This document shows, piece after piece, positions 1 through 57,426 of a stretch of 64,000 nt of DNA. The notes beneath the pieces are model-generated. The model saw only the letters and a program-made list of their open reading frames with translations. It made no database searches and was not told the DNA's origin. Position numbers and translations under genes: made by a program. Numbering within the stretch: position 1 is the stretch's first letter; every line of letters starts with the position of its first letter. Location of the stretch: NCBI GenBank assembly GCA_905178155.1, contig CAJINV010000004.1, forward strand, positions 9,355,360 to 9,419,359, given 5' to 3'. Origin of the DNA: Amoebophrya sp. A120 (Eukaryota; Protista; Dinoflagellata).

Positions 1-128
1 TAAATTTGAATTATTCATGAAGTTGAACTATTCAATTTGAACTATTCGCGAAATTGAACTATTCAATTTGAACTATTCACGAAATTGAACTATTCAATTT
101 GAACTATTCACGAAATTGAACTATTCGT
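1..128. repeat. Tandem array of ~15/30-bp units (GAAATTGAACTATTCAATTTGAACTATTCAC-like), probably inside the partial introner at the window edge
   Basis: TGAACTATTC recurs about every 15 nt from 1 to ~128; there are no unique spacers. Confidence 0.9.
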
Positions 129-16509: not shown

Positions 16510-17642
16510 GCGTGAGTGGGGCCGTATAGTCGTGGAAGAACAAGAAGTTGTAGGAGAGATGCAATTCCTAATCGCAAGTGTTTCTGTTTTCCAGGTCATC
16601 AATAGTAAACGAGAACACAACGAGGTTTTAACTCGCTCAAATTTTTTTTGATTTCAATTTGTGAATAGAGAATCGTGGTGGAGTAATTATTTGTTTGCTC
16701 ACTCATACTCAGAGTCAGAACTTTAAGACTAGTCGCAATCTTTTTGACGCTCGTTGTTATCGAGTCCCAGTGGCGCCTTCGTTTATTTGCCGATGTCCAA
16801 GAAGTGTCGAAAATAGCAAGAGCATAAATCGGACACCCATCAAATACAAGATCCGTTATCGCGTTATGCCGATGTGAAAAATTGATGAAGTTGATGAATG
16901 TTTACAGAGAATCAAAATAAATTCCGCTCCCCTTACCTTTGTACAAACGCAACTTGATGATCTTTGAATTAATATCGCCAGCACCTCACCCCCGCCGACC
17001 AGGATCAGGGCACACGTCAGGTTACTTTTGCGCCAATGCTTGCTTGTTATGTATGGTGGAGAAACAGTAGATGGGTTCTATTTAGTGTTGCAATAGGAAA
17101 TTTTATTCAGTCACAACGGTGCTCCTGTTGCCTATGTGCCTACCCGTAGTTGAAGTGACATATCACAGTTTCGTTCTTTCGAATTCCTGATCGTCAAGTC
17201 GTTTTCACTATCGTCTGTCGTGGTCCCGTGTCGTGTCGTTCCGGTGTATATACATACTATTACGCATTTTGTTTTTGTGCCGCAGACTTTCTTCTAGCAG
17301 CTCAGCATGTGATTGCGTCCAGATATGAACACCGTGCTCGTCCTGGTCTTACTCAAATCCAAATCGCTCCGTCCCGCGCATACTCGCTGCCGTATCCGTA
17401 TGGGTCCGTTGCTTTACGACTGTTGATATTGTATTTCTATTTCGATTGAGAAATCCAAATCCCGATTGTATCTTCGCTAATGCCCAGTAAGCACCAGGAC
17501 CAGCAGTTCACATACCGAAGCACGCGGGCCTCCCTAGAGGTAGTTCACGTCTCTCCTCTAAGAAAGTGAAAGCAAGTCCTTCATTCCACTTTTTCAGAGA
17601 AAAAAAACATTCGAAGTAGTGCCCCACTCTTGTATAGGCAAA

Positions 17643-19268
17643 ATGTCGATCTTCCAAAAAACTATGTCCATGTCGATCTTCCACATGCAGCGCTGGTCAC
17701 CACGGGTGGTGTGGGTTTCCTTGCTCCTTCTAGCGTTTGCGGCCATCGTCATCATCACAACCACGCTGCACCATTCGCATGTTTTCCTGGGCTTGCACAA
17801 CTTCGACGTCCCAGTACTGGCGGGCTCGTGGTCTTCATCATCAGAAACAAGCTGGGCGTCATCAAAAACTTCTCAAGGGGTAATACACAAGCACTTTCGC
17901 GGGAACACCAATGACAACTACATTGGGAGGGTGAATAGAAACGTTGATGAACCACGTAAAAACGCCTTAGCAAAAGAACGTAAACGCGACGAGCGGGTGC
18001 CTTCCGCGGTCGTTCGTGGACAACAACCTACAACTCCGAGCAAAGGGCCCCAGATGACCATGCAGCCCCGACCGTGGTCCCCGCTCCCCGCGCTCTGGGA
18101 CACGCAAACCCCGATCGGCCACGACAGGAACGACCGATGCGACTGGAGGCAAATCCGGACCCACCTCCCGGCACCGCACACGAACACGTGGCTCTGTCTC
18201 CGACCGTACAGTGATTTGGTCACCAACGCGGTGCGGCGAAACGGGGAGTGGGGTGATTGTCACCGGTTGCCGCTTTTGCACGACGCGGCGAAAAGGAGTT
18301 TTTTCCCACCCAAGCAAAAACAGTCCTCAGTGGCAGTAAATGGTGCGGCTGTACGGGCACCAGTGCCACCATTGCAAGCGGGTGCAGGAGCTCCAGAACA
18401 GCAGCAGCACCTGCTTCCCTACATGGAGATCGGCGTGAACATCGGTTCGTGCTACGTTCCGATGACCCAGAAGACGGACATCGAATTCGCGCTCGGCTTC
18501 GAACCGTCGCCGAAAAACCTTTTTTACACCAGCAGCTCCCTCGTGCGGGTTTTTCAGGACGCAGACAAGGACAACAAAAGGTTTCAGCTGCAACAGATGA
18601 GCGGCAACTTGAACAAACTACCCCTGGGTAGTAGACAACAGCTGCAACTGAAAACCAACAGCACGACTCTCCGCGAGCGCATTCGCCTCGCGCCGGTCGC
18701 GCTCGGCGAGACGAACACGGACCTCACGCTTTTTTCGGAGCCGGGAAACGCGGGGAATTCGGTGCTCGGGAAGCCGGTGCACGCGAATTTAGTGGAGGGG
18801 AAAGTGCCGGTGGTGCGCCTGGACGATTATTTCCGGGCGGGCGGGGACGTTGCTGCTTTGGTGCCTTCGATTTCTGCGTCGAAAAGTGGTGAGACAAAAG
18901 TTCCACCGGCGTCTTTGCTTCCGCGTCATCAACAGGACCTCCTTGATGTGTACAACGGCAAGAAGAAGTTTGGCGTTTTGAAAATGGACGCGCAGGGGTT
19001 CGAGACCAAGATTTTCCGCGGGGCGAAACACCTGCTAAAAATCCAAGCCTTCAAATTCATCCATTTCGAGCTGGCAACGGAGTGGCTGCGGGGGCAGGGT
19101 ACCTCGGCCGAGGAGTTTTTGAAATTGCTGGAAGATGCCGGGTACCAGATCTGCGGCTACCGAAAAGTGGCAAATTTGGTTGAGCGGCTGCGGGGCAGAA
19201 ACGTTGTTGAAACGCATCTGGCGTACGCCGGGAGGGACGATGCCGGCGGATGCAGAATTGGGGCGTGA
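17643..19268 (+). CDS. FkbM-family SAM-dependent methyltransferase, type II membrane-anchored; intronless
   Basis: N-terminal TM (VVWVSLLLLAFAAIVII). Motifs YMEIGVNIG, FEPSPKN, VALG, VVRLDDY and VLKMDAQGFETKIFRGA are typical of FkbM/Methyltransf_21. Start codon uncertain. Confidence 0.85.
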   Translation: MSIFQKTMSMSIFHMQRWSPRVVWVSLLLLAFAAIVIITTTLHHSHVFLGLHNFDVPVLAGSWSSSSETSWASSKTSQGVIHKHFRGNTNDNYIGRVNRNVDEPRKNALAKERKRDERVPSAVVRGQQPTTPSKGPQMTMQPRPWSPLPALWDTQTPIGHDRNDRCDWRQIRTHLPAPHTNTWLCLRPYSDLVTNAVRRNGEWGDCHRLPLLHDAAKRSFFPPKQKQSSVAVNGAAVRAPVPPLQAGAGAPEQQQHLLPYMEIGVNIGSCYVPMTQKTDIEFALGFEPSPKNLFYTSSSLVRVFQDADKDNKRFQLQQMSGNLNKLPLGSRQQLQLKTNSTTLRERIRLAPVALGETNTDLTLFSEPGNAGNSVLGKPVHANLVEGKVPVVRLDDYFRAGGDVAALVPSISASKSGETKVPPASLLPRHQQDLLDVYNGKKKFGVLKMDAQGFETKIFRGAKHLLKIQAFKFIHFELATEWLRGQGTSAEEFLKLLEDAGYQICGYRKVANLVERLRGRNVVETHLAYAGRDDAGGCRIGA

Positions 19269-39500: not shown

Positions 39501-41693
39501 GAACACAGAAAGCTCGAGAAATACGTGTTTGATGCGAGAAAGGCGAAGCAGCTCCCGGTAAAAGCGACTAAAGCAGACTGCAAGGAAACCGCGCTTTCCC
39601 ACCGCGTCACCGCGTTGGAGAAAATCTTTTCCTGGTGCATCGAGCTGTGTCACGAGCTGCCTCCACACCCAAATGGCATAGACTGGAAGGACGAAAAACG
39701 GGTCATGCCCATCACCAAGTCGGCGGTACAGGCGGAGACGCACAAGCAGTGCAAGCAGTGGGCGACGTGGTGGCCGAGCCTGACCGCTTACTCGGACATT
39801 CACTACCAGTACCGTGAAGCGGACCTGCTCACGGGGTGGTCCGACACCTTTCAAATGGTGGGCAGCGGGGTCTCCGTGCCGCGCAGCATCATCGTGGTGG
39901 CGGAAAGCGGGAAGGCGTACAAGCTGCTGGTCAAGGGCGACGACGATGCCCGACAAGACTGCATTTTCGAGCAGATTTTCATGCATTTGAAGTCCGTCGC
40001 CGGAAGAGCCGCGCCGGGGGGCGGGGGAAAAACCAACAAAAACGTGTTCGAGCACCTGGTCACCTACAAAGTGATACCGCTCGCACCGCAACAGGCCGTG
40101 ATAGAGTGGGTCGACCCAACAATGCCCGTCGGAAGTTGGCTGCAGGTATTGCTTCAGTTTATTGTCAGAAGTTGTTAGTTTAGTTGAGCAACACGTATTT
40201 TTATTTCAATTGCAGCTCATGGCCATGGATATTTCATAAAGATGAGCATGGAACACCAAAAAGTTTTCGTCCAAATTTTTCAACAAAGAAACCCTCGATT
40301 CCGAAGAAGAAAATGCATTCGAACAACAGGACGCTGGCGGCGGGCATGCGCGCTATAATCCACAGGATTGGGCAAATGCCCGATGTCGCGCGGTCATGAA
40401 CGAAGGCCACTTTACGGGTTTTGTGCAAGACCCGGCCTTGCGAGACAAGAAAATCGCGGCGTTCAGGAAGTGTTGCGAGAACTTCCAGCCCGCGCTATTG
40501 TGAGGAAAAATCCCCCCTCCCCATATCGAAAAGATACGTCGCCGAAAATTTGCAATGCTGATTTGCGACCACAAATCATCTCTGTCTTGCAAGAAGGCAA
40601 GTCCACAGGCTCCGCCGCATTCTGCAGGCGGTTTGTGATGCTGTTGGGCCTACAGCGCAGACGTTTCTCATGCTAAGAGCCTAGCCCAAGACCTCTCTAC
40701 TCAGGCTTAGTATGGACCTGCAGTCCTCTCCAGCAAGACAAATCCGATTTGTGTACGCAAATCCAGCATCACAGACTTCGTTTTGATGTGGGGTGGGGGC
40801 TTTTTTCACTTTGATACGCGCTGAAGTACTTCTTTCTCGAGAAATTTGGGCACAACGCGGTCAAACACCACGAGGCGCTGTATCAAGTGTAAAAATGTCT
40901 GGGTCTGGAAGATTCTGAGATTTGTCATGCATGTTTTACATGACCTAGGATGTCTGTAATGCGCGACCTGACATCACAGATTTTTAGAGTGCTTGCTGAT
41001 GCCTACTCCGCATGACAAACGCCCTCCCCGCGTAGCGCAACCTAGACTCCTCTTGCTGGTCATGCAATACAGATTTTTTTAGATGAGTCCAAAGCTAGCG
41101 TCACAAGTTCCATCCTCCCAGACCCAGACATTTTTACAGTTGATACGCTGACGGCGTATGCGAAATCGTTGGCGGTGACCTCGATGGTCGGGTATGTTCT
41201 GGGCGTGGGCGACCGGCACGTGAACAACATCATGATGAATTTGAAAACCGGCGAGATCCTCCACATCGACTTTGGCATGGTCTTTGACTTTGCGAAAAAT
41301 CTCCCCGTTCCCGAGGAGGTGCCCTTCCGGATGACGCGCGACTTGGTGCACCCGCTCGGGTGGCAGGGGTTGCAGAACGGGGTCTTTCGGAAAGGATGTG
41401 AGTACGCGTTCGAACTGCTGCAGCAGCACGAGGAATTGCTGTTAAACCTGTGCGAAGTCTTTCTCTACGACCCCATCACGCGGTGGAACGCGCGCCAGGA
41501 GTGCGAAACGGCGGCCGGCGGGGAGCAGGCACTGCAGAGCATACGGAGCAAGTTGAGCTTGACCGACTGTCACAGCAAGTCCGGGCTGAGCCAGTTCAAG
41601 GACGTGCCGGCTTTCCTGGACTACTTGTTGACGAAAGCAACGGACCCAGTGAACCAGGCAGTGATGTTTGCCGGGTGGAGCTCGTGGTGTTAG
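24526..41693 (+). CDS. ATM: ATM/Tel1-like PI3K-related protein kinase, ~5,115 aa
   Basis: Exons 24526-30669, 30981-31040, 31302-33462, 33782-37555, 37705-40145, 40330-40495, 40822-40880, 41151-41693 (15,348 nt, in frame). Motifs LVKGDDDARQD, TYKVIPL, IEWV, HARYNPQDW..CENFQPALKYFFLEKF (ATM-type), VGYVLGVGDRHVNNI, HIDFG, PEEVPFRMTRD, and FATC ATDPVNQAVMFAGWSSWC. Confidence 0.88.
30670..30975. mobile_element. Introner, family F, DR AGACT/AGACC
   Basis: TATGGAAGTGTCAGAATCGAAATTGACAAAATCGAAAAATTTG...CAAATTTTTCGATTTTGTCGATTTCGATTCTGACGCTTCCATA. Frame restored. Confidence 0.93.
31041..31296. mobile_element. Introner, family A2, DR CCTTG/TCTTG
   Basis: Family A TIRs. Excision gives SFQSL-PAKLKD. 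Confidence 0.92.
33463..33776. mobile_element. Introner, family F, DR TGCGG
   Basis: TATGGGAGTGTCAGGATTGAAATC...GATTTCGATTCTGACACTTTCATA; interior similar to 30670. Excision gives TTA-G-CFEPL. Confidence 0.93.
37556..37699. mobile_element. Introner, family D-like, DR CAAGA
   Basis: TATCCGCAAAAAACAACCATCC...GGATGGTTGTTTTTTTGTGGATA. Excision gives EWQYK-T-GKTQDG. Confidence 0.92.
40146..40329 (+). other. GT-AG intron in the kinase domain
   Basis: CAG|GTATTG...CAACAG|GAC gives GSWLQ-DAGGGHARY. Confidence 0.85.
40496..40816. mobile_element. Introner, family G, DR CGCGC
   Basis: TATTGTGAGGAAAAATCCCCCTCCCCATATC...GATGTGGGGTGGGGGCTTTTTTCACTTTGATA. Excision gives NFQPA-L-KYFFLEKF. Confidence 0.92.
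40881..41145. mobile_element. Introner, family A, DR CGCTG; opposite orientation to 4521, 9950 and 61298
   Basis: Family A TIRs; interior matches the reverse complement of 61298. Excision gives HHEAL-TAYAKSLAVTSM. Confidence 0.94.
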
Positions 41694-42239
41694 TGACGGG
41701 GTCGTTGTGTACGTAGAACCATCAGAAGTGAATTATTCATTTCTGATTGTTTTACTCACTTTTGTAGAAATTGGATGAAATCCTCAAGATGCAAATGCTT
41801 ATACTTTTACTTTGTGAGAAAGGCTCAAGGAACCTCGCACTGCTCGGACCCCGGTGCGGGGGGAGAGTTTTTAATGTGTCCGTCAGTACTCCTCCCCAAA
41901 GTGATGTTCCCGATTTACCCGACTTAAAAGTAAATGATTGTGATTGTCTTCGAGTAGGTCTCTCTCTCATCAGTAAGGACAGACAGCAGTACTTGCGCAC
42001 TAGAGTGACAATGAGTGAAAATCTAAATCGTCTGATCGTTCAGCTTTTTCGCTCACCGCCAAATAATCGAAAATCGCAAATCGTTGATCGTACTAAGTCG
42101 TGCTACAAATTCACCTTCGCACCACCACAAGTCCTTTATCACCGCACTAACAGGGGAGTCGTATGCAAAATATTAAGATTTGATTCGCGTTCCAGTATTG
42201 ATTTTTCAGACTGTATAGCAAACTGCAAAAACACTAACC

Positions 42240-43568
42240 ATGCCGAATCCTAATCCCGGTGGTGGCGCCGCAGAGCCGAAGGAACCAAAGAAGTCGCAGA
42301 AGGCGAAAGACGACGAGTCGAACGGGGAAGCGGCACAAAAAAGCAAGCGTGGAAGGAAGAAGGGGAGTACGAAAAACACGCCGAAGATTGCTGCCACGAC
42401 GCCTACAGCCACGCCTGGAAACCGCTTGCTCGCGATTGAAAAACAAGTGTCCGAGTTGCGCTCGCTGAACATTATATCCATCAAGGGATTTGGTCTTCGT
42501 CCTTTCTCCATATGGTGTCAGGAGGCACAGGAGGAGCACGACAAGATGACCAAGGCGGGGAGCGAAGTCGGCGCGGGGGAACAGCAGGAGGAGATGCTGC
42601 AAGATGAGGATGGAGACGAAAAAATGAACACCGCTCGGCAAGTAACATTCCCGGAAGACGAAGATGAGGACGTCAACATGTACTCAAGCAATAAGCGGGC
42701 GAACCAGGACGACGAGGAGGAACCCAGCAAGCCATCTCCTATGCTTGAGGCCCAGTATGTTGCAGATCGGAAGGTGTTCGTAGCCAATTTCGCTGATCAC
42801 AAGCACCCGGAAAAGCTCAAGTTTTGGAAACGGGAGTGCATACACGAGATCATTGCGGTACTCAAGGCGAACATCGTAAAGTCGGGGGAGTCGGGACTGC
42901 AGGTGCTGAAGGATGAAGCCACCGGAAAAATAACTATTGCAGAGGATCCCGAACTCAAGTATAGCGAGACGCAGGCAGAGGTTTGCCGGCGCCTCGCGCT
43001 CAAGATGGTGAGAGCTTTCAGGGGGATAGAACCTTGTTACATCAGGTTCTTATCAGTAAATGCAAGCACGGACTGGGCAGATTTGATCTTGCGGCCAAAC
43101 TCGCAGACTATGGCGCTTAATTCGATAGTACAGTCTGAAGAAAAGAATTGGTGCAAGATTTACGTCCTACCGATCCTGGTTCGGGAGAACTACCCGCGGT
43201 CCCCCGCGGAAGCGAAGAAAACGGCGGCAAAAATCCAGGCGGCAGCGGAAAAGGACCAGAAGGATCCGACCGCGGGCACACAGGCGGTGAACACCGAGGA
43301 CAAGAAGGGCGGCAAGGGAGGCGCGAACCCAAACTCAAAAAAGCAGAAAACTGACAGTACGGCGGGAAGCAGCAGTAGCAGTAGTGCTAAGGGAAGTCAG
43401 AAGAACCGCGCCGGAACCGGGGCCGCGGCCAGCGCGTCCTCGTCCTCGACAACGGCGCGAGAGGAAAAACCATCCCAGCCGCAGGTGGTAAAGAAGTCGG
43501 GCGTCAATGTGGATCGCCTTCTGAGGACCGGGATTTTGGTGAAGGGGAAAAAGTTGACGTTCACCTAG
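42240..43568 (+). CDS. ORF1-like protein (or captured mRNA ORF) inside the retroelement, 442 aa
   Basis: Basic N- and C-termini and a short coiled-coil (RLLAIEKQVSELR); lies between the TSDs; no recognised domain. Confidence 0.7.
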   Translation: MPNPNPGGGAAEPKEPKKSQKAKDDESNGEAAQKSKRGRKKGSTKNTPKIAATTPTATPGNRLLAIEKQVSELRSLNIISIKGFGLRPFSIWCQEAQEEHDKMTKAGSEVGAGEQQEEMLQDEDGDEKMNTARQVTFPEDEDEDVNMYSSNKRANQDDEEEPSKPSPMLEAQYVADRKVFVANFADHKHPEKLKFWKRECIHEIIAVLKANIVKSGESGLQVLKDEATGKITIAEDPELKYSETQAEVCRRLALKMVRAFRGIEPCYIRFLSVNASTDWADLILRPNSQTMALNSIVQSEEKNWCKIYVLPILVRENYPRSPAEAKKTAAKIQAAAEKDQKDPTAGTQAVNTEDKKGGKGGANPNSKKQKTDSTAGSSSSSSAKGSQKNRAGTGAAASASSSSTTAREEKPSQPQVVKKSGVNVDRLLRTGILVKGKKLTFT

Positions 43569-44260
43569 GTGTGGAGAGGCAAGTAGTTTGTAGTCGATGA
43601 CTAGCGGTGCGCGTACATGCTGGTCTACCTTACTGATGAGAGGGTTGGAGTATCATGAAGTAGTTTTTACTTTTGCTCGCCGAACTGAAAACGAGGACTT
43701 AATTCGAACCGGAGGTGAAGCTGCGTCGCAAGTCTCGCCGTGTATGATAAAAAGCTAGAAAGGTGTTTTTGGAGATATTGCAGCGCGGATTCGCCATCGG
43801 GGGCTCACTTGAAGACGATCATATCTAAAAAGTAATATCGAGGAACGGACAGCCGATCGCTGAACACGGAGGCGCAGACTGGCCGATACGAAGCAGGAGC
43901 TGTTGATTGCAAGACAGCTACGAGACCTCTCCAGCGATCGACCCCGCCGTATCCTGAAATATCGAAAACGGTGTGCAGTTGTGACAAGTTCTTTGTTTTC
44001 CATATCGAAAACGGAGGCACTTGAAAAGATATCAGGAGGCGGTAGTTTGGATTTGGAAGGAGTGCTGATGTCTTAGAAAGTTGAATTGTGGTTCGATCGA
44101 CGTGCTGCTGCCAATCGCGACGACATCCTGCAGTAAGTGTGCGTGCAGGTGTAGTCTGATCGGGTGGTTTACAAGATCGAATTTGTGACGGTCACGAGGA
44201 CCTGATCGGGCCCGCGGTTTGCCAGCCGCGGTGCTTTTTGAAGGCACAAGCACTACTATC

Positions 44261-44289
<29 letters not shown>
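44261..44289 (+). repeat. Internal poly(A) tract (29 A) between ORF1 and ORF2
   Basis: Direct reading. Confidence 0.95.
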
Positions 44290-44294
<5 letters not shown>

Positions 44295-44475
44295 AGAAGA
44301 AGTTCCTGCTGCGTTTGTTCCCCCTGAGCAAAGCGCCTTTTATAAGGCTGACGAACGTTACAGGAGCAGACGAGTCCTTGAGTGTGTTCGCGACCAGAAG
44401 CCGAGACTTCAGGGCACCCGTGAAGAGTTTTGAGAGAGTTTCTTTTTACCGAGCCAAACACACCCCTACCCCGCG

Positions 44476-47400
44476 ATGAGCGCACAAGCTTTAGCCCCCG
44501 CAGCAGGGAGGAACCCGGCTGCAGGCGACAGCAGACTTCATGCCGGGCGGGAGGAACCTGCCCGAGAGCGGCGCAGGGTTAGAGTGCTGAAGAGCTTACG
44601 AGTTGGCACCTTCAATGTACGTACGTTGGGGGTGCAAGAGGACGATGGGACCAGAACGGTGGAGAGGGAGTGCTTGTTGAGAGATGCTAGAGAGCGGAAG
44701 TTGGATGTGCTGGCAACACAAGAATCTCGGGTGACGGAATGGATCAATGGAGAAAAGCTTGATGAGTACGTGCTTTATGGAGGCGGAGCTTGGAAAAACG
44801 CCGCAGGTGCTGCTGTTGGCGGAGTTCTATTCTTGATACGATCAAGCTTAGAAGTGGTGGGTTATGAGGATGAGCAGTGGGGCCGCCACGCGCGTATTTC
44901 ATTACGAACGCCACAGGGCCAGAGAGTGCATGTGCACGGATGTTACGCCCCGACCAACGCCGCAGACCGGGAAACAAAAGACCTCTTTTGGAACCGGGTC
45001 GCGCAGAAGGTGGCCGCGCACAGTAGTAGGGATGTTGTAGTGGCGGTGGGCGACTTCAACGCGGAGTTTACTGGCGGCCCACAGTGGGAGTTGATAGAAG
45101 CTGGGCTTCCGTTTACCGTCGGGCCGTGTGGCCTAACCTCCAAGTTTGCGCACGAGTCGGACAACGCGACCAGACTCCAGAGCTTCGCCGCGGAGGCAGA
45201 GTTGGTCGACGTTTCTTCGATGTGTAAAAAACCATGGTCCCGACGCTTCACCTTCCAGGGGGAGTGGAAGGGGGCGCGCAACAAGCGGGAGTACGACCAT
45301 ATCCTCATAAGCTGGAAACACCGTGCCCGGGCGCACGGTTTCAGGGTACATGGCGACACGAATACCTTCAGCGACCACCGACTGGTGGTGGTTGAAATCG
45401 CAATGTGGATTGCCAAAAAAGAAAAGGCCCCCACGACAGGAGCTGCATGGGTCAGAACCAAGCAAGCAGCGGAGCAGGTCAGCAGGGAGCTGGAAAAAGT
45501 TTATAACATCGAGGCAACTCCGCACGCCATTGAGACGGGGGATAGGAGCACAGACCAGTGGTGGGGGGAGTTCGAAGAAGTCCTCGTAGCCACCATAGAC
45601 AAGCTCAGCAGAAAAGCAGCGACAAAGAAAGGCCCCCGCAAGCCCTGGATAAGTACAGCAACATGGGAAAAAATCGAAGAACGTAAGCGACTGATGACAA
45701 AGGAGGGGCGGACAAACAAGCTGAGGCGCAGCAGGCTTGGCCGGGTCATCCGGATGTGCATCAAGGAAGACAAAAAGGCCTGGGTGGTCGACAAGCTGGA
45801 AGAGCTCCGCCGGGCCGACAACGCCGGAAATTCCCGGGAGGTGTTTGAAGTTGTGCGGCAGCTTGCGGGGAAATCAAGAAAACCGGCACAGGAATTGCCA
45901 GGGAGCCCGGAAATCTGGACCAGTTTCTGGGGGCAGATCCTGGGCGAGCCCCGGCCGGAGCCCCCCGAGGAGACAAAAAGCACAAAGAGCTACGCAAAGT
46001 GCACCGAGGCACTAGCGGAAGACGACAAACCAGCATGGTGCCACGGTTTGGAAGGGGTCCCAAGCGAGTCCGAGGTGGTCGAGGCCTTGCGCGGGCTAAA
46101 AGCGGGAAAAGCTTACGCGGGAGCAGCGCCTGCAGAACTAATACGCGACTGCGCGCTGGCGCGTGCCGTCGTAGTTTCACTAGTCCGGCGGGTCTTCCGG
46201 GGAGAGGAAGTCCCCGAAGCCTGGGGCCGGGCGGTGTTGGCAATGCTCCACAAGAAAGGGGACAAGAGCCAGGCAAAAAACTACCGGCCGATTGCCTTGC
46301 TGACGTTTGGCGAAAAACTTCTTGGACTTATAATTTTGAAGCGAATCGAAAAAGAAGCAGCGGCAACGATCGACAAAAGGCAAAAAGGGTGCACGCGCGG
46401 ACTGAGCTGCCGGCATGGCGTCTTCCAGATCCTGCGCGACATGGAAAAATGCAAACGGGAAGGGCGCCGGGCGTATCTTATCTTTGCGGACTTCCTCAAA
46501 GCCTTCGACAGCTTGGGGTGGGACGTGATGCACAAGATCCTGAAACACCAAGGCCTCCCGGAGTACATCGGTCGAGTAGTGCGCAGCATGTACGATAGCA
46601 ACGCAAAAATCTGCATTAGACTGGCGCGGGATCGGTGGACAAAGGACATCAAGCAACGGGCAGGAATCAGGCAGGGGAGCTCTCTTTCCCCCTTGATTTT
46701 CGCTATTGTCCTGGACTTTGCAATTACCCAGTTCGCGCGGGTAATGGAGGCCGAAAAGAAGTGGAGTCTTGCTCAGGCTAGGGGCATGGCGATGAGCCTG
46801 CTGGGTTTTGTTGATGACTTGGTGGTCAAGGCCAATGACGAAGAAGACGCGCAGTTCGCAGTGCGCGAACTGGCAGGGGCGTGCCGGTTTGTGGGGCTGG
46901 AACTGAACCCAGACAAGGGAAAAACGGAGGTCATGGTCGTAAACCAGCAGAGCAGGGAGAGGAAAAACGAATTTGCGATGACAGAGCGGTGCATGATCAG
47001 CGAAGAAGAGGGGGTCAAGGCAGTCCATGGGTTCCTCGTGGAATGGGACGGCATCGACCTGGTTCGAGAATACCGCGCTGCCGCGGCAGCGGTGTCAACG
47101 AAGCTGATGGGGGACTTGGTCCCCACCCACCTTGCCGTGTGGGACAACGGACTCCTCAACATCATCAAGATGAAGGCATCCGGGTGGGCCACGCTCGACA
47201 ACGGCAGGGCCATGCGGATCACGAGGCTAGGCCGCCGGGAGTACATCCTCGAGAAACACAACCAGCACCGTTGCCCGAGGTGCGGCGATGTGTTGGAGGA
47301 TGCCACCGCGCTGAAGTACCACCTGGCCACCGGGTTCTGCCGCAAGGACAAAACCATACAGGAACAGAGAACCCTACGGGTGGCCAGACAGGTAGAGGGA

Positions 47401-48372
47401 AAGAAGAAAAGCGAAAAGGCGGCAGCGGTGGCGGAGCCTGTTCACGTATGGCATGGTGGGAAGCAAATAGCCACGGTGGAGCGTTTTGTGTACTTGGGCA
47501 CAGAAATCGACCGGAATGCAACGACTACGTCCGAAACGAAAAGGCGATGCGCGATGGCGCTGAGCACAGTTAAGTCGTTGACAAAAATCTGGCGCGACAA
47601 AGAAGTACCGAAACACCTCAAGGCAGGGCTCTACCGCGCGTTGTCGCTAAGCGTCGCCCTGTACAACGCCGAAACCTGGGCGACTTCGGAAGAAGACGAG
47701 AAGATCCTTCGGAGCTTTCAGACCCAGGCGCTGCGCCACATCCTCGGTTATTGGGATTGGCAGGGCGCGCCTTCCCGCGACCAGATGTGCCGCATGCTTG
47801 GGGTCCAGGCTATCGAAGTAGAGCTTCGGGAAAAACGGATATCCTGGATCGCACACACAGCACGGGACACAACCGGGGAGGGTTCTTTGTCCCGTGTCAG
47901 GACAGAAATCCAGGAAAAAACGCCATGGGGCCGCAAAGCCGCAGAAGACCTCGAGTTTTACAACTTCAGCCTCGACGACTTGGTGGCACAAAAGCCAACG
48001 GGCGCGGCCACAAGGGAAACGCTGACACGGCGACGGCCCTACGCCACTGGGAGAAGGGAGCAAAAGAAGAAAGGGCCCGAGCGGGGAAAGCGGTCGAAAA
48101 AGGCGGAGAAAATGCTTGAGGAGAGGCGCCTTCGGCTCGAACAACAGAAAGCTGAACAAGCTGAAGCTGCTGCAGCTCTTGTAGAAAAACTTTCAGGAAA
48201 AAAGTGGAGAGCTTCAACGAGTAGGCCGGGGCAGTGGGAGGTGGAAGGGGACCCAGAGGTGGCTTTCGAAGTCAGTGACGTCTATTTCTGCGAAAACTCA
48301 GGAAAGGAAGAAATGAACGTAGCAGGGGTGTGGTTCGTACGGGAAAACGACGGAACTTTTGTGTTGCGATAG
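44476..48372 (+). CDS. ORF2: APE-like endonuclease plus reverse transcriptase, 1298 aa
   Basis: EN motifs VGTFNVRTL, LATQE, GDFNA, YDHIL and SDHRLV. RT motifs NYRPIALL, FADFLKAFDSL, GIRQGSSLSPLIF, FVDDL and FVYLG. Confidence 0.97.
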   Translation: MSAQALAPAAGRNPAAGDSRLHAGREEPARERRRVRVLKSLRVGTFNVRTLGVQEDDGTRTVERECLLRDARERKLDVLATQESRVTEWINGEKLDEYVLYGGGAWKNAAGAAVGGVLFLIRSSLEVVGYEDEQWGRHARISLRTPQGQRVHVHGCYAPTNAADRETKDLFWNRVAQKVAAHSSRDVVVAVGDFNAEFTGGPQWELIEAGLPFTVGPCGLTSKFAHESDNATRLQSFAAEAELVDVSSMCKKPWSRRFTFQGEWKGARNKREYDHILISWKHRARAHGFRVHGDTNTFSDHRLVVVEIAMWIAKKEKAPTTGAAWVRTKQAAEQVSRELEKVYNIEATPHAIETGDRSTDQWWGEFEEVLVATIDKLSRKAATKKGPRKPWISTATWEKIEERKRLMTKEGRTNKLRRSRLGRVIRMCIKEDKKAWVVDKLEELRRADNAGNSREVFEVVRQLAGKSRKPAQELPGSPEIWTSFWGQILGEPRPEPPEETKSTKSYAKCTEALAEDDKPAWCHGLEGVPSESEVVEALRGLKAGKAYAGAAPAELIRDCALARAVVVSLVRRVFRGEEVPEAWGRAVLAMLHKKGDKSQAKNYRPIALLTFGEKLLGLIILKRIEKEAAATIDKRQKGCTRGLSCRHGVFQILRDMEKCKREGRRAYLIFADFLKAFDSLGWDVMHKILKHQGLPEYIGRVVRSMYDSNAKICIRLARDRWTKDIKQRAGIRQGSSLSPLIFAIVLDFAITQFARVMEAEKKWSLAQARGMAMSLLGFVDDLVVKANDEEDAQFAVRELAGACRFVGLELNPDKGKTEVMVVNQQSRERKNEFAMTERCMISEEEGVKAVHGFLVEWDGIDLVREYRAAAAAVSTKLMGDLVPTHLAVWDNGLLNIIKMKASGWATLDNGRAMRITRLGRREYILEKHNQHRCPRCGDVLEDATALKYHLATGFCRKDKTIQEQRTLRVARQVEGKKKSEKAAAVAEPVHVWHGGKQIATVERFVYLGTEIDRNATTTSETKRRCAMALSTVKSLTKIWRDKEVPKHLKAGLYRALSLSVALYNAETWATSEEDEKILRSFQTQALRHILGYWDWQGAPSRDQMCRMLGVQAIEVELREKRISWIAHTARDTTGEGSLSRVRTEIQEKTPWGRKAAEDLEFYNFSLDDLVAQKPTGAATRETLTRRRPYATGRREQKKKGPERGKRSKKAEKMLEERRLRLEQQKAEQAEAAAALVEKLSGKKWRASTSRPGQWEVEGDPEVAFEVSDVYFCENSGKEEMNVAGVWFVRENDGTFVLR

Positions 48373-49146
48373 ACGAGCCTTACACCCCTGGAAGGAAAAG
48401 AAGATGATAGTAGTGCACGCACATCCACGATTCAATCGATTAATTTCAGAGCGGTTAACTGAAACAGGATAATGCGTCGAACTGAACTGAACTGAACTTT
48501 GTGAGAAAGAAGGAGAAGGATGTCCTCAGAGATACAGAAGAACATGAATCGCAAGAGTAACGAGAACGAACCTAACGCAAATCGAAATCCCCAACTGAAT
48601 TACACGAGCATGAACCTGTTTTCTCGACGTAGCAGCTTCAAGAGCATGCGTGAGATAAAGTAAAAGCATATGTGTTAATACGACCTATCACCAGACGCCA
48701 GCAGGCGCTTCGTCACGTTCGTATTTTCTCGTGAATCTGCTTCTTCCTTGGGTCGATCGTCTTCATCATCGTGGGTCGTAGCTTTCATCGATCTATCGTT
48801 GTCGTAATATAGTCGTAACTTTTCTTCTTCTTGGACGAAGAACAGTCAGCCAGATCGATAGCATGGTGAGGTTCTTGATGTCGTGGTCGTATCTAAAATG
48901 TTGTTGTATTGCTATTGGCGACAAAAGAAAATGAAAAATTTTGATGGTGCTTCGATTCAAGTTTTCTTTTTCATTTCTGCAAGGGCTCCTAGCAATTCCT
49001 GGTCCTACTGTGAAACAGAAATGTGTCCGTCAAGGCAAATAGGGAAGGAGTTGTAGACCACCGATATTGCATTTTCTGTTTCATCAGCCGGGGGATCTAT
49101 ACTTGGTCTGCATCTTTTAGGTCGAAGTACTGCACCAAGTGAGAAA

Positions 49147-54154: not shown

Positions 54155-55878
54155 GGAGCGGTCGGAGTGAACCTGAAAACCAGGAGCCTGTTACCTCCAA
54201 AATACACAGCTTCGAAATTGACTTCGTTTTAGGCTTTACAGAAACAATTGACATGAACTAATCACAGCTAACACTAACGTAAACTAATTTTTGGCTTGCT
54301 CCTTATTATACACAGTTTCTTGAAAATACACCTTCTGGTAGAAGTTGGCAGTTACTTGCTACAGAAGTTTGAAATTGAAAAATGCGGACTTGAAACCTTT
54401 CTTGACTGATTTGAAAACCTGTATCTGAAGTTGATATTGACAGCTATTTCGCTTCTCCTGAAAAATTTGCACATCGATCGATCGTCGCCGTGGTTACGAC
54501 CAGCACCAGCAGTCTTGCGGAGATCGAAATTCAAATTGACATCTACGTTTGGCTTTGGACAACTACTACTACATTGAAATCGAAAATTAGTTTTGGATGA
54601 TTGATGAAAAGATATGACACGGTGGAGCCATGGACATGGTCATGGACATCGTGTTGGTCGACTGCGCCTGCCACGTCATACGCAAGTACAACGGGTTTCG
54701 CTCCGGCATTGCTCAGTAAGTCGGCTCTATTTCGTTCTACTTGCTCTATCGTAGACTCGTTTTCGCGCTGCGTCATCGTTATTTCGATATTGTTGAGCTC
54801 TTATTTCGTGGGTAAAGCTTTCGTGTCTTTTCAGCAGCGGAGGGCTGGTCGAGCTCGAGGGTGACAACATAATCGTTCTTCACATTTCGTGAATCGTGGT
54901 CATCTTCACGTAGCGACGCTGGTTTTGTGTAAACGTGCTTGTCATAAACATCATCTCATCAATTTTCCTCTGCAGCAACACGACCACAGGCGTTTGGCCG
55001 ATTTAGTTTTTGATTCTGCTGCTGAAAGAGAAAATCGAAGAAAAAGACTGTAGTGTACGAATAGAAAACCGCAGTCAACTACAGGAACAATGGCCTCCGC
55101 CTTGATGATCTGCGGCGGTGGCGTGCTGACGCTGCTTTTTTTGAAATTCCTGGGCCAGTCAGTGAAGAAAAAGCGGAAAGCGACGGGTTCGAAGTACCAA
55201 GCAGGTGGCGGTGCTGCACGGGGGAAGAAAAAATGAACAGGAGGATATTGCTGTAGTTGCTGGCCGTCGTGAATTTCTCAAACAGAAGATAATTTTTCAA
55301 GAAAGCTAGTTATCGAGCTAGTCGTGTTAACCAGTATCGTCAGTCCGATCTCGAACAGGTAAAGCTCAAAAGTGTGGCTTTGATTTGACCCTTGTTCATC
55401 TCTTGATGACTTCGAGTGTCGTCTTAAAGTAAGATTGTTCTTCGAGTATCGGCGTACCCAGGCCACGACACTACCGAGGCGACGTCATGCATGTATACGA
55501 GTGCGATACTTTTGCAATTCATAGGGCAACAACCGTGGCGAAAAAAGCTTTAGTACAACAACATCGGTGTACTTACTATGGTGAGCTTCGGATTCGGTTA
55601 TATGTACAACTAGTCGGTATCATTTCAGTTGTCGTGCGCGCGGTGCCATCATATTTGACAATCTATGAAAATAAGCTATACCTAAAGCAAATACTAGGCA
55701 AATTAATATAACTCCCAGGCCGCTGCTCCTCGCATGAAGTGTTGCTAATACCAACATTATTTCTTGTTATCTTGAAGAACAACTAACTTACTTTTTCGCT
55801 TCTTCACCTGTACTTGAGTATTTACTTAATTTATCTTTCCATTATAAAGTGCAACTTCTATCGCGTGCTCGCATAATC

Positions 55879-57426
55879 ATGTTGCGCATCACAGGGCTCG
55901 CCGCGCTTCATTTTTTCAACGGCCTCTCAACAACATTTGGGGTCGGGATGAAGTTGTACGGCCAAGGCATTAGCACCTTCAAGGAGCCTACTTTCCTGCA
56001 GCAGGAAGAACAAGAAGCACAAGGTCAGCTACACATGCACCAGCGTCATGAGTTATTTCTTGCTGATCCTTCTACTCCTTCTTGCCCAGACCAAGCACCG
56101 AGAGTGTTCGTGTATGGCTTTCCGGATAAGGAGTTACTAAGTCACGGGACACGTGACATCGTTTGGCGGGAGGATGCGTACTGCGAAAGAGAATTCCCGT
56201 CTGGCTCGGCCGAGGAGCGCGATTGCGTCTTCGGTCCGGAGTTCTCCGTTAGGATCGACTCGCCGCCAGCCAACGTGACGCTCCGTGCCACTGACCAGTT
56301 TCGAAATGGCCGCATCTTCCAATCCCGCCTGGTGCGCTCGGCTTGCAAAGTCACAGATCCCATACGCGCCGATGTGTTTTTCGTGCCCATTTGGCGCGAG
56401 AATTACAAACCGAACCGCATCGAGTGCCCGACGGCAGACGAAGTTTTGGCTGCTCTTCCCTACTTGTCCGACGAAACGGCGAGCAAGCACTTTCTGATGT
56501 CTCCGCGTGTCGGGGGATTGTGGGACGACGTGTGCCCTTTTTGGAATAGCGAGAACCCGCTGCTCCAGAAAATCCGAAAGATGGCCCTGGAAGACACAGC
56601 CTGCGGCAAGTACGGAGGCCCTGGAAGAAACCGCCCGGAGCGTTCTATTCCGTATCCGACCCTTGGTGGCGGTTTGAGCAGTACGCAACTCGCCCACCTG
56701 TTTGCCGTCGCCGATAAAGCGCAGGAAACCGGCCGCGAGTTCCTGGTCATGGCCGCTCTGGGGAAACGCATTGGCATTGCCTCTGCGCGCGTGCGCGACG
56801 TTTGGAATCAACACTGCCACGACAGCGACCATTGTATTGCGGTGGACCCCACGGTGGAGGGCATGCTCCCTGGGTTGGTCCAAGCCATGATGAAGTCCAC
56901 CTTTTGCTTGCAGCCGGAAGGAGACACTCCGTCTCGCAAGGGGATGCTGGACAGCTTGGCGCTGGGATGCATACCGGTGCTTTCGCACCGGAAACAGCAC
57001 ACGCTGTGGCGGTGGCATCTGGGAGACCACGACTGGGAAGATTTCTCTGTGCTGGCGCCAGATTCCACGCAGGCGGCACACGCAACCACTAGGGGCCATA
57101 CATCCCCGGGGGAAAACCACCCAGCCGGCGAGGACGGGGGGCAAGAGCAAGACCAAGCAACTGTCGGCGAGGCAACATCCCAACGTTCGTGGTGCTGTGG
57201 CGATGGCGAGAAGAAATCCCCTCCAGCAGTGGCGCAGACGCTGATGGAAACTGGATCCGGCGTTAACAATATCGTAGAGTTCCTGAAGACCATCAACGCG
57301 ACCACGATCGCCAAACTGCAGGCCGGCGTGCGGAGTGCGCGGACGAAAATCATCACGCACTGGACCGACACCGACTTGAACGACGCAATTACGGTCACGC
57401 TGAAAGCCATACAGGATGGCAAATGA
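55879..57426 (+). CDS. Exostosin-family (GT47) glycosyltransferase; intronless
   Basis: PRVFVYGFP, ADVFFVP and MMKSTFCLQPEGDTPSRKGMLDSLALGCIPV (GT47 signature); hydrophobic N-terminus. Confidence 0.9.
   Translation: MLRITGLAALHFFNGLSTTFGVGMKLYGQGISTFKEPTFLQQEEQEAQGQLHMHQRHELFLADPSTPSCPDQAPRVFVYGFPDKELLSHGTRDIVWREDAYCEREFPSGSAEERDCVFGPEFSVRIDSPPANVTLRATDQFRNGRIFQSRLVRSACKVTDPIRADVFFVPIWRENYKPNRIECPTADEVLAALPYLSDETASKHFLMSPRVGGLWDDVCPFWNSENPLLQKIRKMALEDTACGKYGGPGRNRPERSIPYPTLGGGLSSTQLAHLFAVADKAQETGREFLVMAALGKRIGIASARVRDVWNQHCHDSDHCIAVDPTVEGMLPGLVQAMMKSTFCLQPEGDTPSRKGMLDSLALGCIPVLSHRKQHTLWRWHLGDHDWEDFSVLAPDSTQAAHATTRGHTSPGENHPAGEDGGQEQDQATVGEATSQRSWCCGDGEKKSPPAVAQTLMETGSGVNNIVEFLKTINATTIAKLQAGVRSARTKIITHWTDTDLNDAITVTLKAIQDGK

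What the first reader, a model, noticed from the sequence alone, without database searches (positions are those of the whole stretch)
41809..41830. Retroelement 5' junction begins with the 3' end of the dinoflagellate spliced leader
Seen: GGCTCAAG at 41822-41829, overlapping the last TSD base and starting exactly at the insertion boundary. Known: DinoSL ends ...TTTTGGCTCAAG, and SL relics mark recycled mRNAs in dinoflagellates. Inference: the template RNA was SL trans-spliced, so the element or captured mRNA can be capped by host trans-splicing, which suits a co-oriented gene block and removes the need for an internal promoter. The match is only 8 nt, but its position is exact.
Basis: partly seen in the sequence, partly recalled or inferred. 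Interest (0 to 1): 0.7.

Follow-up and report, generated by a model that had tools for sequence, protein, structure and literature searches.

The report
Intact LINE headed by spliced-leader remnant
An intact two-gene jumping element (a LINE), in what is likely a parasitic dinoflagellate genome, begins with the last seven letters of the leader that dinoflagellates splice onto messenger RNAs, so it was likely copied from an RNA processed like a host message.

Summary
Observation confirmed, with one correction. A 6,673-bp insertion (41823-48495) lies between exact 14-bp target-site duplications. It begins GCTCAAG, the last 7 nt of DinoSL; the eighth G belongs to the TSD. Chance at a fixed start is about 1e-4. 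The insert is an APE-type LINE: ORF1 (442 aa), an internal A29 tract, an open EN-RT ORF2 (1298 aa) and an (AACTG)n tail. Its closest RT relatives are from Amoebophrya AT5, where 2 of 4 ORF1 homologues are numbered next to an EN-RT gene, so ORF1 likely belongs to the element and is not a captured host mRNA. One DNA-like run shows four internal junctions, read as 5'-truncated copies, none SL-like, and no second full-length copy, so the test across copies could not be run. Contigs of one other sample cover the element from 41824/41825. A contig of a spliced-RNA run starts at an internal CTAAC-AG site (42153) with 3 unaligned letters, a possible second SL acceptor. Best reading: the copy derives from SL-trans-spliced LINE RNA (0.8). 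Independence from a promoter is not shown. Verdict: a new variant of known SL-relic retroposition; similar cases recur in this scan's notes.

The parts
41809..41822 (+). 5' target-site duplication (14 bp)
   Evidence: exact repeat of 48496-48509, not extendable
41823..41829 (+). SL remnant GCTCAAG, the first 7 nt of the insert (G 41822 of the TSD also fits the SL); ends in AG
   Evidence: DinoSL text
41823..48495 (+). whole LINE insertion, 6,673 bp
   Evidence: TSD boundaries; no second copy in the window
41830..42239 (+). 5' untranslated region with five upstream ATGs (uORFs of 17, 7, 7, 80 and 6 aa)
42147..42153 (+). CTAACAG, branch-point-like motif plus AG; candidate second trans-splice acceptor ahead of ORF1 (inferred)
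   Evidence: motif; X3 contig laid from 42152 with 3 unaligned letters beyond, letters not printed; 63% pyrimidine upstream, top 7% of 4,562 AGs
42240..43568 (+). ORF1, 442 aa, no Pfam family; 7 homologues, 4 named from Amoebophrya AT5
44261..44289 (+). internal A29 tract between the ORF1 3' region and ORF2
   Evidence: X1, X5 and X6 contigs run from the tract into the ORF2 side (record offsets)
44476..48372 (+). ORF2, 1298 aa, open; APE endonuclease plus reverse transcriptase, catalytic motifs present, CCHC finger at aa 933-955
   Evidence: Pfam PF03372 and PF00078; motifs; nearest relatives AT5 g19784, g20327
48480..48495 (+). 3' tail (AACTG)3 plus A; the first TSD letters continue the repeat phase
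48496..48509 (+). 3' target-site duplication
41046..41693 (+). last coding stretch of the upstream co-oriented host gene (PI3/PI4-kinase domain plus FATC-like end); its spliced contigs reach 41797-41799

Best explanation
[quoted passage not shown] Shown: TSD, tail, open ORF1 and ORF2, SL heptamer at the boundary. Inferred steps: (1) a source copy was transcribed, from its own or a host promoter (unknown); (2) SL was spliced onto an AG just before GAACC; (3) ORF2p nicked the T-rich target and primed on the (AACTG)n tail using about 3 nt of microhomology; (4) reverse transcription ran 6.7 kb and ended 7-8 nt into the leader, joining the target at a shared G; (5) the remnant's own AG could accept a new SL in the next round, restoring the same 5' end.
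For: Exact junction position with about 1e-4 chance. Closest RT and ORF1 relatives are from Amoebophrya AT5; Amoebophrya transcripts are reported with a truncated DinoSL or CTCAAG at the 5' end (passages of PMC7789003; PMC6394959). In run X1, 0 of 4 listed internal 5' junctions (46174, 46973, 48243, 48407) end in an SL-like sequence, so the motif is not a general feature of this element's junctions. ORF1 and EN-RT neighbours by gene number in 2 of 4 AT5 cases: g19785/g19784 and g4854/g4853. Short relics such as CTCAAG are reported in dinoflagellate retrogenes (PMC12014239 passage). An X3 contig, from a run that splices out the 40876-41145 introner, is laid from the AG at 42152-3 with 3 unaligned letters beyond it, as a 5-nt SL end would give (letters not printed, so weak).
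Against: Only 7 nt are element-borne and there is one junction. No second full-length copy or SL-free source locus was seen, so the decisive comparison is missing. This organism's own SL was not read directly: Fig. S5 of PMC7789003 is a picture, and the one raw-read run laid gave 1 read of 3,295,382. SL relics beside gene models are rare in AT5 (five of 19,925 models), and none of the five is one of the four ORF1 homologues (that table lists hits of 13 nt or more). The pyrimidine tract before 41829 is unremarkable (57%; 28% of AGs reach 53%, 12% reach 60%) and two other AGs lie between tract and remnant. 2 of 4 AT5 ORF1 homologues have no RT among the neighbours seen.
Confidence: 0.8

Rival explanations
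1. The remnant is a real SL relic but a fossil: it entered the family once and is now the fixed +1 sequence of an element with an internal promoter, as Pr77 is for L1Tc; present full-length RNA is not trans-spliced there. This is compatible with the best explanation on origin and differs on the present cycle.
For: A 410-nt 5' UTR could hold a promoter. Trypanosome L1Tc makes unspliced +1 transcripts in an SL-using host (PMC1874656 abstract). X5 and X6 contigs are laid from 41825 and 41824 with no unaligned letters, which an RNA starting near +1 would also give.
Against: It needs the relic to be kept exactly. The contig starts are equally what 5-6 nt of fresh SL would give, since those letters equal the genome.
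Confidence: 0.35
2. The insert is a template-switch chimera: an SL-capped, polyadenylated mRNA (41823-44289) joined to a 4.2-kb EN-RT element. The mRNA is either a host message or the element's own separately processed ORF1 message.
For: SL remnant, ORF, long 3' region and A29 is the anatomy of a processed mRNA. X3 and X4 give ~2.1-kb contigs over ORF1 that end at the tract. 2 of 4 AT5 ORF1 homologues have no RT among the neighbours seen.
Against: ORF1 homologues neighbour EN-RT genes in 2 of 4 AT5 cases. No parent at 90% identity or more was laid over ORF1 in X1 (contigs show presence, not absence). No SL remnant follows the A tract. Contig ends at an A tract can be assembly or priming effects.
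Confidence: 0.12
3. The heptamer is chance: it is the element's own 5' end.
For: 7 nt only; the motif is not enriched in the window; it was noticed post hoc.
Against: About 1e-4 at a fixed position, in a lineage where SL-capped RNA is a usual template.
Confidence: 0.07

Closest known systems
[quoted passage not shown]
   Same: A DNA copy starts with the 3' part of DinoSL, marking a trans-spliced RNA template; short remnants are reported.
   Different: Here the copied RNA encodes its own endonuclease and RT, the TSD and tail are intact, no tandem second relic is present, and the host lineage is reported to have few relics (PMC6482013, section 6 read).
L1Tc / ingi of trypanosomes (PMC1874656, abstract only)
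   Same: LINE in an SL-trans-splicing host with co-oriented gene blocks.
   Different: L1Tc starts with the Pr77 internal promoter and its RNA is unspliced; this copy starts with SL sequence.
R2, NeSL-1 and BLAG elements, said or proposed to rely on host promoters (PMC7650587, passages)
   Same: The 5' end would be set by processing of a host-driven co-transcript, if the novel case holds.
   Different: R2 uses a ribozyme in rDNA and NeSL-1 inserts into SL1 genes; this element has an APE endonuclease, lies beside a kinase gene, and promoter-lessness is untested.
RTE-clade LINEs (tail feature from PMC3747384 passages; other features recalled)
   Same: APE plus RT, short tandem-repeat tail, RTE-associated names and domains among distant hits.
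   Different: A 442-aa ORF1 and an A29 spacer; the RT tree leaves the Amoebophrya group unplaced on a long branch.
Amoebophrya AT5 gene pairs g19785/g19784 and g4854/g4853 (PMC6482013 supplements, rows seen)
   Same: Same ORF1 family (18-22% over the alignment) next to an EN-RT gene (g19784 39% to ORF2).
   Different: Their DNA, order, strand and 5' ends were not available, so SL status is unknown.

Membership tests
APE-type non-LTR retrotransposon (LINE) | APE endonuclease plus RT in one ORF | tested here: met
   PF03372 E 4.5e-7, PF00078 E 2.9e-24; motifs
APE-type non-LTR retrotransposon (LINE) | TSD and 3' simple-repeat or poly(A) tail, no LTR | tested here: met
   14-bp TSD and (AACTG)3; no internal repeat in self-BLAST
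APE-type non-LTR retrotransposon (LINE) | 5'-truncated sibling copies | tested here: met
   X1 contigs with foreign sequence before 46174, 46973, 48243, 48407 and behind 48498
APE-type non-LTR retrotransposon (LINE) | ORF1 with an RNA-binding (RRM-type) domain | tested here: inconclusive
   model core mostly pLDDT 75-93 by block; RRM chains only at Z 3.5-4.1, among unrelated rows; no Foldseek match at E 0.001
DinoSL-relic retrocopy | SL 3' sequence at the exact 5' boundary | tested here: met
   7 nt plus 1 shared base, about 1e-4
DinoSL-relic retrocopy | host leader ends in GGCTCAAG | tested here: inconclusive
   reported for the genus; not read from this organism's reads
DinoSL-relic retrocopy | SL-free parent locus, or sibling copies with remnants of varying length | tested here: inconclusive
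   no second copy of the 5' end laid in X1; 0 exact hits in metagenome contigs; no genome held
DinoSL retrogene in the strict sense | copied RNA is a host gene without its own EN/RT | tested here: not met
   insert encodes EN-RT; definition in PMC5585692 passage
RTE clade | RT groups with RTE elements | tested here: inconclusive
   quick tree of 21 of 91 proteins then held, no curated clade references, long branch
RTE clade | short tandem-repeat 3' tail | tested here: met
   feature per PMC3747384 passage
RTE clade | no or very short ORF1 (recalled) | tested here: not met
   442-aa ORF1 with homologues beside RT genes
SL-gene-targeting elements (NeSL-1; CRE/SLACS recalled) | inserted in an SL RNA gene | tested here: not met
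   flank is the 3' end of a kinase gene, SL match stops at 8 nt; one Rfam hit only, E 0.67 over the A tract
L1Tc/ingi-type internal-promoter LINE | promoter in the first ~77 bp, unspliced RNA from +1 | not testable with these tools
   needs a reporter assay or 5' RACE
template-switch chimeric retrogene (recalled) | 5' part has a separate host parent gene | tested here: inconclusive
   no parent laid in X1; homologues beside RT genes in 2 of 4 AT5 cases

The most novel reading that the evidence does not exclude
This LINE family has handed its RNA ends to the host trans-splicing machinery. It inserts in sense just behind host genes, is transcribed by read-through without its own promoter, and the AG of its SL remnant accepts a new SL each cycle, so the 5' end cannot erode. 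A second acceptor at 42153 plus the A29 tract yields a separate SL-capped ORF1 mRNA, making it a retrotransposon run like a trans-spliced operon.
Probability: 0.22. Interest if true: 0.78.

Novelty: new variant of a known kind. Interest (0 to 1): 0.48.

Why it matters
Dinoflagellate retrogenes carry SL relics, but the reverse transcriptase behind them is unidentified in the passages read (PMC5585692, PMC3942190). An intact LINE copied from SL-capped RNA into the leader is a direct candidate. If trans-splicing sets the element's 5' end each cycle, it is another solution to the LINE promoter problem, beside internal promoters and ribozymes. This copy is useful because both ORFs are open and contigs of an RNA-guess sample cover it, so one 5' RACE experiment can decide.

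Tried and rejected
No whole genome is held. The run search listed no holder on record as RNA. Uncovered parts are not used as evidence: the flank before 41824 in X5/X6 and most of ORF2 in X3/X4 have no contig cover; X5 and X6 are one sample, X3 and X4 another, all one study. Contig depth was not used as copy number. Exact search for the 25 nt after the remnant in metagenome contigs: 0 hits. The RT alignment fetched 80 loci, all distant (21-34% identity); 0 of 80 matched the ORF1 profile and 1 of 80 had a 10-nt SL suffix, on the opposite strand. ORF1-alignment scans of viral and prokaryote contigs could not run. Relaxed SL search in the window: 6 hits against 8.6 expected. ORF1: word-index searches found only itself or input members; Atlas gave no usable hit; the single-sequence model (pLDDT 47) and its fold search were uninformative. 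The five AT5 genes listed with SL remnants do not include the ORF1 homologues. PMC5890265 had no passage on SL in LINEs. A jump of RT onto free SL RNA was rejected by argument: it would not join exactly at the SL exon end. The 161-codon open frame across the junction spans host and element DNA and is treated as chance. Eight paper searches listed no title or abstract start describing SL-headed LINEs; the library lacks most subscription papers.

Full report
Observation. GGCTCAAG is at 41822-41829. The 14-mer ACTTTGTGAGAAAG is exact at 41809-41822 and 48496-48509, cannot be extended, and is the only 14-mer shared by the two junction regions. The insert therefore starts at 41823 with GCTCAAG, the last 7 nt of DinoSL as printed in PMC5585692 (passages); the eighth letter is the last TSD base. 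The 8-mer is not enriched in the window (2 seen, 3.19 expected), but only 8 of 128,000 strand positions begin with an SL suffix of 7 nt or more, and Markov models give 8e-5 to 1.4e-4. This is one junction, noticed post hoc.

Anatomy. The insert is 6,673 bp: 5' region with five upstream ATGs, ORF1 42240-43568 (442 aa), an A29 tract 44261-44289, ORF2 44476-48372 (1298 aa), and an (AACTG)3 tail. ORF2 has PF03372 and PF00078 and its catalytic motifs. The first TSD letters continue the tail repeat, which suggests priming by microhomology (inference). The element is on the same strand as 15 of the 16 window ORFs of 400 aa or more and sits 24-26 nt behind the end of the upstream kinase gene's contigs.

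Host. The window has many inverted-repeat elements inside genes, one of which (40876-41145) is absent from an X3 contig, i.e. spliced. The two best RT relatives (39% and 43%) are Amoebophrya AT5 proteins and group with ORF2 at SH-aLRT 100 in a quick tree of 21 rows. The host is thus likely an Amoebophrya (inference). Papers report a truncated DinoSL on at least 18.5% and 37.8% of transcripts in two strains and no evidence of polycistronic co-regulation (PMC7789003 passages; its SL figure is a picture that I could not see), CTCAAG near the 5' end of 1,573 parasite contigs (PMC6394959 passage), and few genomic relics beside genes in AT5 (PMC6482013 section 6).

Is ORF1 a captured host mRNA? The 5' 2.5 kb looks like a processed message (SL, ORF, A tract). 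A full scan found 7 ORF1 homologues, with conserved blocks; 4 are AT5 genes. g19785 is numbered next to g19784, the best RT hit, and g4854 next to g4853, whose printed N-terminal part resembles g19784 (judged by eye). g7125 and g14981 have no RT among the neighbours seen. So 2 of 4 are paired, by gene number only; DNA, order and strand were not seen. This favours an old two-ORF LINE. ORF1's fold is unresolved: confident core, weak RRM-type matches at Z 3.5-4.1 among unrelated rows, no Foldseek match.

Other copies. In X1 one contig runs through the junction from 41121 to 44248 with no other letters, and no second contig was laid at the 5' end. Four listed loose ends lie before internal positions 46174, 46973, 48243 and 48407, read as 5'-truncated siblings; 0 of 4 end in SL-like sequence (5 further loose-end rows were not shown and 5 at repeats were dropped). 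One X1 left flank and one X6 right flank share 14 letters, likely a second 14-bp TSD. Contigs show presence, not absence. The exact 25-mer after the remnant had 0 hits in metagenome contigs, and 80 RT-related loci were all distant.

RNA-type contigs (leads only; contigs cannot fix an RNA start). In one sample, X5 and X6 contigs cover the element from 41825 and 41824 with no unaligned letters, continue from the A tract into ORF2, and link the tail to this locus's flank up to 48603-48605; these runs are only guessed to be RNA. Those starts fit 5-6 nt of fresh SL or a start near +1 equally. In another sample of the same study, X3 has a 2,105-nt contig laid from 42152, the AG of a CTAACAG motif, with 3 unaligned letters beyond it; X4 starts at 42160. 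Five SL letters spliced at 42153 would give exactly this, but the letters were not printed. That AG has a pyrimidine-rich upstream stretch (63%, top 7%); the junction AG does not stand out (57%).

Mechanism. Most likely (0.8) the copy came from SL-trans-spliced full-length LINE RNA by target-primed reverse transcription that ended 7-8 nt into the leader. Whether trans-splicing is repeated every cycle, or the relic is a fossil on an internal-promoter element (0.35, compatible with the same origin), is open. A template-switch chimera (0.12) and chance (0.07) are less likely.

Comparison. It works like DinoSL-relic retroposition (passages of PMC5585692, PMC3229502, PMC12014239, PMC3942190, PMC9651163) but is not a retrogene, since it encodes its own EN-RT. 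It contrasts with L1Tc, which makes unspliced RNA from an internal promoter (PMC1874656 abstract). R2, NeSL-1 and BLAG are precedents for host-driven transcription (PMC7650587 passages). It is not filed as RTE: the tail fits (PMC3747384 passages) but ORF1 is long and the tree is unresolved. Eight paper searches listed nothing on SL-headed LINEs. This scan's notes hold 32 findings with those words, 8 of them shown, from other dinoflagellate and Perkinsus genomes; they are unchecked AI notes, not support, but they suggest the pattern is not unique. None matched this genome or sequence.

Verdict. Real feature; new variant of a known kind; interest 0.48. The bold reading, a promoter-less LINE run as a trans-spliced operon, has probability about 0.22 and would merit 0.78.

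Noticed in passing
window 44261-44289: A templated A29 tract lies between ORF1 and ORF2; X3 and X4 contigs over ORF1 end at it, X5 and X6 continue from it into ORF2. Role unexplained.
   Followed up: partly
window 42147-42153: CTAACAG before ORF1; splicing there would remove four of five upstream ATGs.
   Followed up: partly
window about 47270-47340 (ORF2 aa 933-955): A CCHC zinc-finger-like motif sits inside ORF2 after the RT core; both AT5 relatives show it too.
   Followed up: no
window 40876-41145 and repeat families D1-D20: Several families of inverted-repeat intronic elements; one is spliced out at a 4-nt direct repeat in an X3 contig.
   Followed up: partly
window 41797-41809: The insertion site is about 10 nt behind the end of the upstream kinase gene's contigs in X3 and X4.
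   Followed up: no
window 48960-48983: Pyrimidine-rich tract (73%) plus CAAG before the next host gene; an X5 contig ends at 48983; likely a host SL acceptor.
   Followed up: partly
AT5 g7125, g14981 (P0095, P0098): ORF1 homologues without an RT among the neighbours seen; possibly solo ORF1 retrocopies or domesticated genes.
   Followed up: partly
window 3-126: Tandem 31-bp repeat at the window start.
   Followed up: no
window 17562-19268 and 55738-57426: FkbM-type methyltransferase and GT47 exostosin-type genes.
   Followed up: no
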